Assembly (NCBI GenBank): GCA_030428205.1
Contig: JAUIBK010000021.1
Location: 2,523-66,522, forward strand
Length of the DNA: 64,000 nt
DNA from: a bacterium
GTDB lineage: Bacteria; Bdellovibrionota_C; UBA2361; RFPC01
Reading direction: 5' to 3'
The translations under genes were made by a program, and so were the position numbers. Positions 16,470 through 56,827 of the stretch are shown here, piece by piece. How positions within the stretch are numbered: the first letter of the stretch is position 1; each line of letters starts with the position of its first letter. The notes under the pieces were generated by a model. That model saw nothing but the letters and a program-made list of their open reading frames with translations. It had not been told where the DNA came from and did not search any database.

Positions 16470-16575
16470 TCGTTACCAATTTCTTGAACTTTTTTCTTCG
16501 TGACGAAAAACCCAGTAGTACACCAAAAGATCGTGCCACGAAGAAAAAAGTTCAAGAAATTGGCAGTTCAACCGG
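16470..16575. repeat. Copy 1 of a ~105-bp palindromic element (family B) with 30-bp inverted termini CCAATTTCTTGAACTTTTTTCTYCGTG / CACGRAGAAAAAAGTTCAAGAAATTGG
   Basis: Read directly from the sequence. The other two copies are at 44405 and 56724. Confidence 0.8.
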
Positions 16576-16584
16576 GTTAAGAAG

Positions 16585-17964
16585 CTACACCTCCACCTTC
16601 TGCTTATACTGCGCAACAAACGCATCCCACTTGAGCTGACTCTTAAGCGTATCGCAAAACGCCTCAGCGGAGTCTGGCTCACCGTGCACCACAGCGACTT
16701 TCTTCGGGGTCCCCTGCCCTGATGAGCACCAACGCATAAGCTCTTCACGATCTCCGTGCGCACTCAGCCCGCTCACACTGTCAACGTGTGCCCGGATATC
16801 AACCTCTTCGCCAAAGATACGCATAGTTGACGATCCTTTGAGCATCCAATCACCCCGTCCACCTGGAGGTTGATATCCAACAAAAAGGATTGCATTTTGC
16901 GGGCTTGAAACGCGATGAAAGAGGTGGTGTAAAATCCGTCCTCCTGAGAGCATTCCTGAGGCTGAGATAATAATCATTGGCTCATGAATTGAGTTGAGCT
17001 TCTTTGACTCATGTCGATCTCGAGTAAAGTAGAGTTTATCTGGTGAAAATGGGTGACGCCCTTCAGAGAGAATCCCTAAGGCTTGCTCATCATAATCGTT
17101 GGGATGATTTTTATAAATATCCGTCGCTTCGCTTGCCATCGGGCTATCGATAATCACAGGGATATTGGGAATCTTGTTTTGCTCTTTTAATTCCCTAATG
17201 TAGTACAAAAGAAGTTGCGCACGACCGACAGCAAACGATGGGATGACAACGACTCCACCCTTTTGCTCTGTGCGATTGACTATCTCTGCAATCTTCTCCT
17301 GTGGGGCGTTATCTTCATGTAAACGCGTGCCATATGTCGACTCAACAAGAAGGAGGTCTCCGTACGATACAGGCTTCGGATCGCGTAAAATAGGAATTTT
17401 ATAGCGCCCAATATCACCAGAGAAGGTAATAACCTTTCCGCCAATTTCAAGACGAATAGCCCCTGCTCCTAAAATGTGTCCCATACGAGTCCACCGAGCT
17501 GTAACTCCTGGAAGCACATCATACGTCTTGTCAAACTCAATGGAGCGAAAAAGCTTTAGGGCATCATCGGCGTCCTCTCCCGTATAGAGAGGTTTTGGAT
17601 CTTCGTGACGCGAGCGTCCTTTCTTTTTTCGCCACTCGGCTTCTTCTTCTTGTAGGTGGGCACTATCTGGCAAAAGCACCTTACAAAGATCGTGAGTCGC
17701 CGCCGTGCACCACACGGGACATCGAAGTCCAAGCTTCACGAGCCTTGGTAAAATACCGGTATGATCAATATGCGCATGAGTCAGTAAGACAGCATCAACA
17801 TCTGAGAGATCCACGGGTGGTGCTTCCCAATTTCGTTCTCTCCACTCACGTCTTCCTTGAAAGAGTCCTGCATCAATCAGGATCTTCTTTCCATCTCCCT
17901 CAACAAGATATTTTGAGCCGGTAACCGTACCAGCAGCACCAAGAAATTGCACCGTTACTGACAT
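16585..17964 (-). CDS. MBL-fold beta-CASP RNA-metabolising hydrolase (CPSF/RNase J-like)
   Basis: Metallo-beta-lactamase motif LLTHAHIDHTG, a glycine-rich N-terminus (VQFLGAAGTVTGSKYLVE), and a length consistent with the beta-CASP family. Confidence 0.7.
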   Translation of the reverse strand: MSVTVQFLGAAGTVTGSKYLVEGDGKKILIDAGLFQGRREWRERNWEAPPVDLSDVDAVLLTHAHIDHTGILPRLVKLGLRCPVWCTAATHDLCKVLLPDSAHLQEEEAEWRKKKGRSRHEDPKPLYTGEDADDALKLFRSIEFDKTYDVLPGVTARWTRMGHILGAGAIRLEIGGKVITFSGDIGRYKIPILRDPKPVSYGDLLLVESTYGTRLHEDNAPQEKIAEIVNRTEQKGGVVVIPSFAVGRAQLLLYYIRELKEQNKIPNIPVIIDSPMASEATDIYKNHPNDYDEQALGILSEGRHPFSPDKLYFTRDRHESKKLNSIHEPMIIISASGMLSGGRILHHLFHRVSSPQNAILFVGYQPPGGRGDWMLKGSSTMRIFGEEVDIRAHVDSVSGLSAHGDREELMRWCSSGQGTPKKVAVVHGEPDSAEAFCDTLKSQLKWDAFVAQYKQKVEV

Positions 17965-18325
17965 TCCTACGTCCTTTTATCCCATATTTCCAAAAAACAC
18001 TCCGAAGCCACCTGCTCCTAGACTTCGAGCTAGACCAACAATACTCACTGGTTCCTCGAGTCTATGTCGAGGAGCAAGTGGCTTGAGAATACTTTCGAAC
18101 AGGTTCATGTCATACAACCACACACACAATCAGATGAACACTCAGTAAACATTGTTCAACCGGCAGGGAATGCTCATAGACGGCAAAATCTGCCGAGATA
18201 CCGCCCTATAAAAGCTATGCATATCAATAGGTTAGCATCAACAAGCATGGCACCACGATTGCATTTTGCACTCTATGAAGAAGTTTATAACCCAAACCTC
18301 CTAATAGAGAGGGAGTAGAACAGCC

Positions 18326-19780
18326 ATGCCGCTTATTAACTTTTCCGGTCTCGCTTCGGGTATTGATTCTGAAGCACTTATCGAAGCTACGAGCGAAGCC
18401 TCGCGAGCCGTGCGTGTTGTGCCGCTCGAAGAAGAGGTCACCGAACACGAAGAAGAAACAAGTGCTCTTGAAGAGCTCAAATCGATGCTCGATAACCTTA
18501 AAGATCTCGGTGAAGAGTTTACCTCACTCAACGGTGGTGTTGTTGCAAAAACAGTAACAAGTTCAGATGAGACCGTGGTATCTGCTGTTGCAAGCAACGC
18601 GGCTGATATCGCTAGCTATGAAATTGCCTCTGTAACATCTCTTGCTTCAAATGCGACGTTTTCCTTTAGTGAAGCAATATCAGATCCAGATGCAGCCATT
18701 CTTGGAACGGGAAGAAACGGCGCAATTGAAATCACCATTGGGAGTGCTTCTGGTGGAAATCAAGAAACGATTACAATAGATGTAACAGAAGATGATACCA
18801 CCTTTAGTGAGCTTATTGCTGAGATTAACAACTCTACCTCACGTGCAACCGCTAGCCTTGTTAATGTTGGAACCGAATCGAGCCCTAGCTATAAAATGGT
18901 TATCACCTCAAATGAGATTGGTTCTGCAGATGCAGAGATATCTATCGATACGGATGTTGCTCATAGTGTGACAGCAGATCAACACCTTGATGACGATGCG
19001 CTTGATGACGCGACTGCTACTCTCGATCAAGCGACTGATGCTGTATTCGAAGTCACTGGTATTGGCACTATCACAAAGAGCAGCAACACCATTACCGATC
19101 TCTTTACTGGAGTCACACTGACGCTCAACGCTGAAAGTGGTACAGCAACAAACCTCCAGATTAAAAACGACGCATCTGCTACAGAAGCGGCGGTAAAGGA
19201 GTGGGTAGATGCTTATAATGAAATGATAGCGTTTATTGAGGAAAACGATCAGATTACCCGAGAAGAAGATGGCAGCGAAGTAACAAATATCTTTGGTCCC
19301 CTCGCCTCTACGAGACTCGATAACGGTGTCATTACCGCCATACGTGGGGACATCTCAGCTTCTGCTTACGATCCTGCCGGTGATGAAGAACTTCAATTTC
19401 GTATCTTTGCAGACCTCGGAATTACGACCGCACGAGATGGGACACTTGAGTTTGACTCAGATAAATTTCAAGAAGGCGTCAACAACGAACCAGAATCAGT
19501 CTCGGAAATTTTTAAAGCTTTTGGTGATGCACTTGCCACTACGGGTGGAACCATCGACCAGTACACCCGTTTTAATGGATTGATAGATACCGCCGTTGAT
19601 GCCAATGATGCACGAATAGAAGACTTAAACGACCGAATCGCTCGAGCCGAGGAATTTATTCTCGCAGAAGAGCAGCGAATTCGAGCGCGCTTTGCTCGTC
19701 TGGAAAGTACGATTTCAGAGATGCAATCTCAGCAGCAGGCTCTCACCTCAGCACTAGCCGGCCTCCCTGGAGTCGGATAG
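18326..19780 (+). CDS. fliD: Flagellar filament cap protein FliD, paralogue 1
   Basis: N-terminus MPLINFSGLASGIDSEALIEA and C-terminal coiled coil (DQYTRFNGLIDTAVDANDARIEDLNDRIARAEE...) are typical of FliD. There is a good RBS (GAGGGAG). Confidence 0.8.
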   Translation: MPLINFSGLASGIDSEALIEATSEASRAVRVVPLEEEVTEHEEETSALEELKSMLDNLKDLGEEFTSLNGGVVAKTVTSSDETVVSAVASNAADIASYEIASVTSLASNATFSFSEAISDPDAAILGTGRNGAIEITIGSASGGNQETITIDVTEDDTTFSELIAEINNSTSRATASLVNVGTESSPSYKMVITSNEIGSADAEISIDTDVAHSVTADQHLDDDALDDATATLDQATDAVFEVTGIGTITKSSNTITDLFTGVTLTLNAESGTATNLQIKNDASATEAAVKEWVDAYNEMIAFIEENDQITREEDGSEVTNIFGPLASTRLDNGVITAIRGDISASAYDPAGDEELQFRIFADLGITTARDGTLEFDSDKFQEGVNNEPESVSEIFKAFGDALATTGGTIDQYTRFNGLIDTAVDANDARIEDLNDRIARAEEFILAEEQRIRARFARLESTISEMQSQQQALTSALAGLPGVG

Positions 19781-56244: not shown

Positions 56245-56261
56245 GAGAGGGAGTCGGGAGT

Positions 56262-56699
56262 ATGAGTACAAAAGAACGAATTCTTGTCGTAGATGACAAT
56301 CCAGATATTCTTATGGTCGTAAAGACCGTACTGGAATCTAATGGTTATTTTGTTGATACTGCAAATGATGGAGATGAGGCCTTGGAGTTTCTCGATGACG
56401 CCGAGCGTGCTTCTCAGCTCACAGCAATTTTTCTTGATATCCTGATGCCACGTCTCAACGGCCTAGAGGTGCTTAAAACGCTCCGTATACAGGTACACAC
56501 ACGAAATGTTCCAGTCATCATGTTAACCACCGAGGGACTCGCTCAAGATATTATCAAAGGGTACAACGAGGGGGCACAGTACTACATCCCAAAACCGTTT
56601 ACCTCTCAGCAGCTCCTGTACGGCTTAAGTCTCATTCTTGAGGACGGCAAAGATCCTTTAGAACTTGATCTTGAAAAGAAGATTGCAGAGCTAGAGTAA
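56262..56699 (+). CDS. Single-domain response regulator (receiver)
   Basis: ILVVDDNPDILMVVKTVLESNGY...IFLDILMPRLNG. Confidence 0.75.
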   Translation: MSTKERILVVDDNPDILMVVKTVLESNGYFVDTANDGDEALEFLDDAERASQLTAIFLDILMPRLNGLEVLKTLRIQVHTRNVPVIMLTTEGLAQDIIKGYNEGAQYYIPKPFTSQQLLYGLSLILEDGKDPLELDLEKKIAELE

Positions 56700-56723
56700 G
56701 ATCCACCAAGAGGTACTGGTTTT

Positions 56724-56827
56724 CCGTTACCAAATTCTTGAACTTTTTTCTCCGTGGCGAAGATCCTGGCAGAATACATTCGTTTTATGCCACGGAGAAA
56801 AAAGTTCAAGAATTTGGCTGTTCGACT
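56724..56827. repeat. Copy 3 of the family-B ~105-bp palindromic element
   Basis: CCAAATTCTTGAACTTTTTTCTCCGTGGC ... GCCACGGAGAAAAAAGTTCAAGAATTTGG. It sits between convergent genes. Confidence 0.8.

What the first reader, a model, noticed from the sequence alone, without database searches (positions are those of the whole stretch)
16470..56827. Three copies of a ~105-bp element with conserved 30-bp inverted termini and unrelated cores, each at gene 3' ends
Copies at 16470-16575, 44405-44510 and 56724-56827 share termini CCAATTTCTTGAACTTTTTTCTCCGTG(G/A)C and the reverse complement, plus a conserved outer flank (G)TT(A/G)CC ... (C/T)(A/T)GTTC(A/G)AC. The ~35-45 nt between the arms differs completely between copies. 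Each sits between convergent genes or directly after a gene stop: flagellin versus the MBL hydrolase; the HExxH membrane protein versus truA; the receiver versus purM. The long stem containing T6/A6 tracts would make a strong bidirectional terminator. The conserved termini around a variable centre are also what a MITE, or a site recognised by a dedicated protein, would look like.
Basis: seen in the sequence. Interest (0 to 1): 0.65.

Follow-up and report, generated by a model that had tools for sequence, protein, structure and literature searches.

The report
Conserved palindromic intergenic repeat family
An uncultured Bdellovibrio-like bacterium carries several copies of a ~107-bp DNA palindrome between the ends of facing genes; a sister species has kept it almost unchanged, so it is probably a REP/REPIN-like repeat that serves as an RNA end hairpin, which is a familiar kind of element and not a new mechanism.

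Summary
The three copies are real (16467-16573, 44401-44507, 56721-56827). Each has 29-nt arms, a 30-nt loop and conserved asymmetric outer flanks, and each lies between convergent genes. The cores are not unrelated: the loops are 47-57% identical in register, and the loop of copy 2 is inverted relative to its flanks. The host is a Bdellovibrionota MAG. Relatives at ~87% protein identity carry the element at all three orthologous sites, with locus-specific variants shared. Their 4-fold degenerate sites are saturated (29-40% identical), yet arms are ~96% and loops ~63% identical, which indicates purifying selection. Arm changes occur on both sides, including a matched T7/A7 indel. On both strands the T-run precedes the stem and the A-run follows it, so no U-tract follows the hairpin and it is not a canonical terminator. 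Flagellin has its own canonical terminator upstream of copy 1. Relatives at 60-68% identity have unrelated hairpins at the same gene ends. No target-site duplication, transposase or RAYT was found, and single arms are not palindromic. Best reading: an old, vertically inherited REP/REPIN/Correia-like repeat family acting as a 3'-end RNA hairpin, possibly also recognised by a sequence-specific factor. Genome-wide copy number could not be measured.

The parts
16467..16573 (+). Copy 1, whole element (left flank TTTTCGTTA, arm, loop, arm, right flank CAGTTCAAC), between flagellin (+) and the beta-CASP hydrolase (-). The right flank ends 11 nt from the beta-CASP stop.
   Evidence: covariance-model hit 117.8 bits
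16476..16504 (+). Copy 1 left arm, CCAATTTCTTGAACTTTTTTCTTCGTGAC. The variant T at arm position 23 is matched in the right arm. The A at position 28 gives A.C on the + strand and G.U on the - strand.
16505..16534 (+). Copy 1 loop, 30 nt; homologous in register to the copy 3 loop (14/30).
16535..16563 (+). Copy 1 right arm.
44401..44507 (+). Copy 2, whole element, between the M50B-like membrane protein (+, stop 8 nt away) and truA (-, stop 7 nt away).
   Evidence: 125.4 bits
44410..44438 (+). Copy 2 left arm (consensus sequence).
44439..44468 (-). Copy 2 loop, 30 nt; matches the loops of copies 1 and 3 only as a reverse complement (17/30 each), so it is inverted relative to the flanks. The orthologue L022 has the same orientation.
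44469..44497 (+). Copy 2 right arm.
56721..56827 (+). Copy 3, whole element, between a receiver-domain gene (+, stop 21 nt away) and purM (-, stop 28 nt away).
   Evidence: 121.2 bits
56730..56758 (+). Copy 3 left arm, CCAAATTC...; the variant A at position 5 is matched in the right arm.
56759..56788 (+). Copy 3 loop, 30 nt.
56789..56817 (+). Copy 3 right arm.
46772..46832 (.). Possible distant relative: a perfect 29-nt-arm palindrome with a 3-nt loop. Its outer 14 nt and adjoining bases resemble the family (GTTG|CCATTTCTTTGAAC vs GTTG|CCAATTTCTTGAAC; 12/14 against the L024 variant), its interior is unrelated, and it lies in a divergent promoter region. Membership is uncertain.
   Evidence: the model score (34.9 bits) is no better than for the unrelated hairpin at 4917-4992
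16342..16403 (+). Context, not part of the element: a canonical intrinsic terminator of flagellin (~20-bp stem followed by TTTTCTTTTC), upstream of copy 1.
   Evidence: fold; sequence

Best explanation
This is a lineage-restricted family of ~107-bp dispersed palindromic repeats of the REP/REPIN/Correia-element kind. The family spread by copying in an ancestor of this Bdellovibrionota genus (inferred from homologous arms, loops and flanks). The copies have since been inherited vertically at fixed sites and kept by purifying selection (shown by orthologue comparison). Each copy fills the gap between two convergent genes and is transcribed into their 3' ends (inferred), where it folds into a 29-bp stem with a 30-nt loop (predicted). 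The most likely action is as a 3'-end RNA barrier and processing site: a block to 3'->5' exonucleases, a likely RNase III substrate, and an insulator against antisense read-through, particularly for the minus-strand genes whose stop codons it abuts. It is not a canonical U-tract intrinsic terminator. Recombination or template switching between the arms keeps them complementary and has flipped the loop in copy 2 (inferred). The arm sequence, not only its pairing, is conserved, so a sequence-specific partner (protein or nuclease) probably also recognises it; that partner is not identified.
For: The repeat is real and non-random. It forms strong hairpins on both strands. All 3 copies lie in convergent junctions although only 11 of 53 junctions are convergent and they hold ~12% of the remaining intergenic bases; my arithmetic gives p about 0.009 by junction count and 0.002 by bases. 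For five of the six neighbouring genes the element is the only structure in the 3' intergenic DNA. Orthologous copies exist at all three sites in ~87% relatives (L022, L025, L024), and they share locus-specific variants (c1 CTTCGTG, c3 GTCGAAC). 4-fold sites are 29-40% identical and the DNA between the purM stop and c3 is unalignable. By contrast the arms show 5 substitutions in 114 nt plus one matched indel, and the loops are 33/52 identical. Two stem pairs changed on both sides, T6/A6 became T7/A7 in both arms, and 97.4% of cells are paired. Positional equivalence: relatives at 60-68% identity have unrelated hairpins at the same gene ends (beta-CASP in L029 and L030; truA in L032). The anatomy (conserved inverted ends, less-conserved fixed-length spacer, compensatory changes, ~100 bp, extragenic, vertical persistence) matches the published description of REPINs (PMC3116915; bioRxiv 10.1101/2021.07.10.451892). 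RNase III action on the inverted-repeat hairpins of Correia elements is documented (PMC2649163).
Against: There are no transcript data, so transcription, 3' ends and RNase III cleavage are all inferred. No U-tract follows the hairpin. With four sequences the covariation statistics are weak (30/500 shuffles reach the observed score), and matched arm changes could come from DNA-level palindrome correction without any selection on RNA. A purely structural role does not explain ~96% arm sequence identity across saturated divergence, nor the conserved unpaired flanks. The possibly related hairpin at 46772 sits in a promoter region, not at 3' ends. Copy number beyond the window is unknown.
Confidence: 0.5

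Rival explanations
1. DNA-level site for a dedicated sequence-specific protein. The arms and asymmetric flanks would be recognised, as duplex or as a single-strand hairpin, by a RAYT-like HUH enzyme, another domesticated transposase or recombinase, or a nucleoid protein such as IHF. That recognition, and not the RNA hairpin, would then be what selection preserves.
For: Arm sequence is conserved at ~96% where neutral sites are saturated, and 26 of 30 stem pairs never vary. The unpaired outer flanks GTTR and GTTCRAC are also conserved between paralogues and orthologues. Three (G/C)TTGAAC boxes occur per element, and each arm contains A6-GTTCAAGAAATTG, which resembles the IHF core TCAAnnnnTTR (read from the sequence; a lead, not a test). 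REPIN persistence depends on a cognate RAYT (bioRxiv 10.1101/2021.07.10.451892), and IHF binding is documented for Correia elements (PMC2649163). The old loop inversion shows the arms interact at the DNA level.
Against: No candidate protein was found in the 64 kb. Single arms have no REP-like palindrome. A 30-nt centre disfavours cruciform extrusion from duplex DNA (general knowledge). This reading is compatible with the best explanation and does not exclude it.
Confidence: 0.25
2. A currently active MITE: a selfish non-autonomous transposon with 29-bp terminal inverted repeats, mobilised by a transposase encoded elsewhere, with no host function.
For: It has terminal inverted repeats, is small and non-coding, is multi-copy and is intergenic. 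Short-read assemblies of two genomes break inside the arms, as expected for a repeat present in many copies. A second hairpin shares only the terminal ~14 bp.
Against: There is no target-site duplication: the bases abutting the arms are TA/CA, TG/TT and TA/CT. 3 of 3 sites are occupied in ~87% relatives and share locus-specific variants, and the element is conserved far above the neutral level, whereas a decaying selfish insertion would be unrecognisable at this divergence. No transposase lies in the window. No match was found in plasmid, phage or viral collections. No excess of empty target motifs was found.
Confidence: 0.12
3. A canonical bidirectional intrinsic (Rho-independent) terminator.
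For: It is a very stable hairpin between convergent genes, and unrelated hairpins occupy the same positions in relatives.
Against: On both strands the U-run precedes the GC-rich inner stem and an A-run follows it. The bases after the full stem are CAGUUCAAC or UAACGAAAAG and similar, not U-rich. The loop is 30 nt against the usual 3-8. The genome does use canonical terminators, for example after flagellin, so this different form is not a genome-wide habit.
Confidence: 0.1
4. Chance similarity or an assembly artefact.
For: Several unrelated hairpins in the window have arms of exactly 29 nt, which is odd.
Against: 0 of 100 shuffles give any match. The element appears in independent assemblies of at least three samples or genomes (the window, Logan ERR3428546, GCA_020434525.1, Logan SRR28385526), with biologically sensible variation.
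Confidence: 0.02

Closest known systems
REPINs (REP doublets forming hairpins) with their RAYT transposase, Pseudomonas and enterobacteria (PMC3116915; bioRxiv 10.1101/2021.07.10.451892)
   Same: About 100 bp; two highly conserved inverted ends around a less-conserved spacer of fixed length; compensatory changes across the hairpin; extragenic; vertically inherited and long-lived.
   Different: Here each conserved end is not itself a short REP palindrome. No RAYT was seen and its presence could not be tested. The host phylum is different, and the outer flanks are asymmetric.
REP/BIME elements of E. coli and Salmonella
   Same: Palindromic repeats at gene 3' ends and between genes, with consensus shared across related species. 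Their roles in mRNA 3'-end stabilisation and transcription attenuation are taken from my own knowledge of the literature and were not retrieved here.
   Different: REPs are 20-40-nt imperfect palindromes with a 5' GTAG. Here there is one 88-nt hairpin with a perfect 29-bp stem and a large loop.
Correia repeat-enclosed elements (CREE/NEMIS) of Neisseria (PMC2649163)
   Same: 100-157-bp elements bounded by ~26-bp inverted repeats that form mRNA hairpins bound or cut by RNase III; they can carry an IHF site; most locations are conserved between genomes.
   Different: CREE have a conserved core, are mostly 5' of genes, can create promoters and show insertion polymorphism. None of these is seen here, and there is no sequence similarity.
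MITEs in the strict sense (PMC10969869)
   Same: Small, non-coding and multi-copy, with terminal inverted repeats and a stable fold.
   Different: No target-site duplication, no partner IS, and no presence/absence polymorphism among the relatives available.
SPRITE and other terminator-like repeats; canonical intrinsic terminators
   Same: A stable hairpin at gene ends.
   Different: There is no 3' U-tract on either strand, and the loop is 30 nt.
Integron attC sites (for example Vibrio VCRs)
   Same: About 100-bp imperfect palindromes after genes, with conserved ends and a variable centre; the right flank GTTCAAC fits RYYYAAC.
   Different: The left flank GTTRCC is not the complement (GTTRRRY) and the order is wrong. 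The copies are 12-28 kb apart among housekeeping genes, not in a cassette array, and no integrase is present.

Membership tests
REPIN/RAYT system | Two conserved ends in inverted orientation, separated by a less-conserved spacer of constant length, able to form a hairpin | tested here: met
   29-nt arms at 93-100% identity; 30-nt loops at 47-57%; hairpin z -7 to -12
REPIN/RAYT system | Each end contains a REP, itself a short palindrome | tested here: not met
   Single arms with their flanks fold no better than shuffles (z -0.4 to +1.4)
REPIN/RAYT system | A cognate single-copy RAYT (Y1/HUH transposase) in the same genome, typically flanked by the repeat | not testable with these tools
   None among ~53 window genes.
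REPIN/RAYT system | Vertical inheritance and long persistence in the lineage | tested here: met
   3/3 orthologous sites are occupied in ~87% relatives with shared locus-specific variants, while 4-fold sites are saturated
MITE | Terminal inverted repeats; small; non-coding | tested here: met
MITE | Target-site duplication flanking the inverted repeats | tested here: not met
   The bases abutting the arms are TA/CA, TG/TT and TA/CT. The conserved flanks are the same in every copy, so they belong to the element.
MITE | Autonomous IS with the same termini, or presence/absence polymorphism | tested here: inconclusive
   No solo or widely spaced arms in the window. No hits in plasmids, phages or viral contigs. 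Sites are occupied in genus-level relatives and the family is absent from ~88 kb of 60-68% relatives. Whole genomes were not available.
Intrinsic (Rho-independent) terminator | GC-rich stem with a short loop, immediately followed by a U-tract on the transcribed strand | tested here: not met
   A 30-nt loop; an A6 (not a U-run) follows the GC-rich inner stem on both strands; no U-run follows the full stem. Compare the canonical flagellin terminator.
Integron attC | Complementary R''(RYYYAAC)/R'(GTTRRRY) ends, cassette array, nearby intI | tested here: not met
   Only one flank fits; copies are 12-28 kb apart among core genes; no integrase
Any Rfam family | Score at or above the family's gathering threshold | tested here: not met
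   Only tRNA passes. The elements give sub-threshold hits to eukaryotic miRNA-precursor models, which reflects a generic long hairpin.

The most novel reading that the evidence does not exclude
The element is not merely a tolerated REP-like repeat. It would be the cis half of a host-maintained two-part system specific to this Bdellovibrionota lineage. A dedicated factor, unlike a RAYT because the arms are not REP palindromes, would read the 29-bp arm sequence and the asymmetric GTTR/GTTCRAC flanks at convergent-gene boundaries. The same process might impose the recurring 29-bp stem length seen in four unrelated hairpin families of the window.
Probability: 0.15. Interest if true: 0.65.

Novelty: new member of a known kind. 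Interest (0 to 1): 0.35.

Why it matters
It adds a well-delimited palindromic repeat family from a phylum (Bdellovibrionota) for which the held literature reports none. It also gives a clear example of such a repeat held at orthologous sites under purifying selection while synonymous sites are saturated. This supports the view that REP/REPIN-like repeats can be long-lived, host-integrated features. Practically, the repeat breaks short-read assemblies of this lineage. The arm sequence could serve as a lineage marker and as a handle for finding the protein that recognises it.

Tried and rejected
1. Genome-wide counting failed. The arm pattern in the species-representative genome collection gave one chance hit in Fictibacillus. 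In the metagenome collection it gave 18 single-arm chance hits with no extended identity and no partner arm. The patterns required T6, so T7 variants such as L022 would be missed, although the T6 copies of the sister genome would have matched.
2. Viral contigs (T6/T7 pattern), plasmids and phages gave nothing.
3. Rfam gave no family.
4. A search for an empty target motif (GTTRNNGTTCRAC) found 3 hits against 3.1 expected.
5. The covariance-model hit at 7015-7106 was rejected. It lies in receiver-domain coding sequence and folds like shuffled sequence.
6. Promoter readings (sigma-70 using the TTGAAC boxes; sigma-54 using TGGCAC-N-TTGG in the loop) were checked by eye and rejected, because the spacing and the -10/-12 elements are not conserved between copies.
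7. An uptake-sequence reading was rejected because there are no solo arms, in genes or anywhere else in the window.
8. XerCD/dif-like reading: the arm has no 11-6-11 internal symmetry.
9. The shared orientation of the three copies cannot be interpreted, because the whole window is one replichore (uniform negative GC skew) and all three sites are convergent.
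Full report
**Observation**

The three copies exist as described. Aligned, they share a left flank TTTnnGTTR, a 29-nt arm CCAATTTCTTGAACTTTTTTCTCCGTGGC, a 30-nt centre, the reverse-complement arm, and a right flank YWGTTCRAC. The 29-mer occurs six times at up to 3 mismatches, against 0.00 expected from shuffles, and nowhere else in the window. The outer 14-mer also has no further matches at up to 2 mismatches. 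The arms pair perfectly in c2 and c3, and over 27 bp plus one mismatch in c1. Each element folds as a single long hairpin on either strand, at -41 to -62 kcal/mol with z -7 to -12.

Two details of the observation are wrong.
- The centre is exactly 30 nt in each copy.
- The centres are not unrelated. c1 and c3 share 14/30 positions in register (p=0.008). The c2 loop matches c1 and c3 only as a reverse complement, 17/30 each (p about 0.001) (I1/I2).

All parts of the element therefore derive from one ancestor. The loop has diverged more than the arms, and in c2 it is inverted while the asymmetric outer flanks are not.

**Host and relatives**

TruA, PurM and the beta-CASP hydrolase place the window in an uncultured Bdellovibrionota (Bdellovibrionales/Oligoflexia) MAG, on a 67,316-bp NCBI contig. 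Short-read Logan contigs of the same organism (ERR3428546) stop inside the arms at c2 and c3. That is the behaviour of a repeat present in many copies.

The only close relatives, at about 87% protein identity, carry the element at all three orthologous sites.
- A complete c2 copy in GCA_020434525.1 (L022).
- c1 in the same assembly (L025, contig ends in the loop).
- c3 in Logan SRR28385526 (L024, contig ends in the arm).

Locus-specific variants are shared between orthologues: CTTCGTG in the c1 arm, GTCGAAC in the c3 flank, and the flipped c2 loop. The copies therefore predate the split of these species.

**Selection**

Between the window and these relatives, 4-fold degenerate sites are only 29-40% identical, which means saturated. 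The DNA between the purM stop and c3 cannot be aligned. In contrast, the arms differ by 5 substitutions in 114 compared bases plus one single-base indel present in both arms (T6->T7 and A6->A7). The loops are 33/52 identical, and the outer flanks are nearly unchanged.

Across the four complete copies, 26 of 30 stem pairs never vary, 2 changed on both sides, and 97.4% of cells pair. With four sequences the shuffle control is only suggestive, at 30/500.

The element is under purifying selection. Complementarity is actively kept, either by selection on a hairpin or by DNA-level correction between the arms. The loop inversion shows independently that the arms interact. Conservation of the arm sequence itself and of the unpaired flanks exceeds what stability of a 29-bp stem would require, which points to sequence-specific recognition by an unidentified factor.

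**Function**

The element is not a canonical terminator. Because it is a palindrome, both strands read T6-GC-rich stem-loop-stem-A6. The U-run is therefore upstream and an A-run downstream in both directions, and nothing U-rich follows the full stem. The genome does use canonical terminators: flagellin has a ~20-bp stem followed by TTTTCTTTTC at about 16342-16403, upstream of c1.

The window has 11 convergent, 12 divergent and 30 tandem junctions, and all three copies are in convergent ones. My arithmetic gives p about 0.009 by junction count and 0.002 by intergenic bases. The GTTCRAC side lies 11, 7 and 28 nt from the stops of the minus-strand genes, and for five of the six neighbouring genes the element is the only structure in the 3' intergenic DNA.

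Relatives at 60-68% identity keep the gene order but have other hairpins at the same gene ends.
- After beta-CASP: a short GC-rich hairpin in L030, and a long hexamer-repeat palindrome in L029.
- At the truA stop: a perfect 20-bp hairpin with a U-rich tail in L032.

The position requires a hairpin, while the sequence family that supplies it is lineage-specific. I conclude that the element works mainly as a 3'-end RNA hairpin: an exonuclease barrier, a probable RNase III substrate and an insulator against convergent read-through. This is inferred, since there are no transcript data.

**Origin and class**

- No target-site duplication is present; the bases abutting the arms are TA/CA, TG/TT and TA/CT.
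- There is no excess of empty target motifs.
- No transposase, RAYT or integrase lies among about 53 genes.
- Nothing similar exists in plasmids, phages or viral contigs.
- There is no Rfam family.
- The held literature has no report for this phylum.
- A covariance model built from the four copies finds only the known copies in 151 kb of window plus relatives. The remaining hits are generic hairpins and one rejected coding-region hit.

The anatomy matches the published description of REPINs: conserved inverted ends, a less-conserved spacer of fixed length, compensatory changes, about 100 bp, extragenic and vertically persistent (PMC3116915; bioRxiv 10.1101/2021.07.10.451892). However, the single arms are not REP palindromes, and a RAYT could not be looked for. 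Correia elements are the closest functional analogue for RNase III and IHF interactions (PMC2649163).

I file it as a new family within the broad, known kind of dispersed intergenic palindromic repeats. I do not file it as a REPIN or a MITE in the strict sense.

**Limits**

Genome-wide copy number, the partner protein and all RNA-level claims remain untested. The collection scans found only chance hits because these genomes are not in the collections.

Noticed in passing
window 3640-3719, 41128-41202, 46772-46832, plus the finding's family: Four sequence-unrelated intergenic hairpin families all have perfect arms of exactly 29 nt. About 88 kb from relatives at 60-68% identity has few or no such long perfect hairpins. 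No explanation.
   Followed up: partly
window 4914-4995, 41128-41202, 50221-50321 (also 3514-3569): A second repeat family of palindromes is built from GCAAGA/TCTTGC hexamers: 14 matches to GCAAGAGCAAGA against 0.9 expected. Two copies lie in divergent promoter regions and one in a convergent junction. Analogous GGACAAGGAGCAGGA palindromes sit at gene 3' ends in relative L029 (6403-6470, 8180-8240, 11387-11458).
   Followed up: partly
window 46772-46832: A perfect 61-bp palindrome (29-nt arms, 3-nt loop) lies between the divergent response-regulator and YjeF_N genes. Its outer 14 nt and GTTG flank resemble the finding's family and its interior does not. It may be a subfamily sharing only the termini.
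   Followed up: partly
window 54658-54722: A hairpin with 18-nt perfect arms (GCGAATTTGGAAATTTCG) and a 29-nt loop that has its own small stem lies upstream of the T2SSE/PilB-like ATPase gene.
   Followed up: no
window 25990-26207: tRNA-Leu(CAA) lies at 25990-26073. Its last 17 nt plus 25 nt downstream (26057-26098) recur at 26166-26207 with 98% identity. This looks like an att-type duplication but is only 109 bp apart, possibly the scar of an excised element.
   Followed up: partly
window 16342-16403: A canonical intrinsic terminator follows flagellin (~20-bp stem followed by TTTTCTTTTC), showing that the organism uses standard U-tract terminators.
   Followed up: yes
window 18326-21627; L029, L030: Two tandem FliD (filament cap) paralogues sit next to the beta-CASP hydrolase and flagellin. 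The arrangement is conserved in relatives at 67-68% identity.
   Followed up: no
window 12237-14621; L029 13023-15461: A VirD4/TraG-type type IV coupling protein has no other conjugation genes nearby and is syntenic in a 67% relative, so it appears to be a chromosomal core gene of this lineage.
   Followed up: no
window 7015-7106: The covariance model gives a 29-bit hit inside the C-terminal coding sequence of the PAS/receiver gene, with GCGTTGCCAAC identical to the L022 copy's left end. The fold is no better than shuffles, so it was judged chance.
   Followed up: yes
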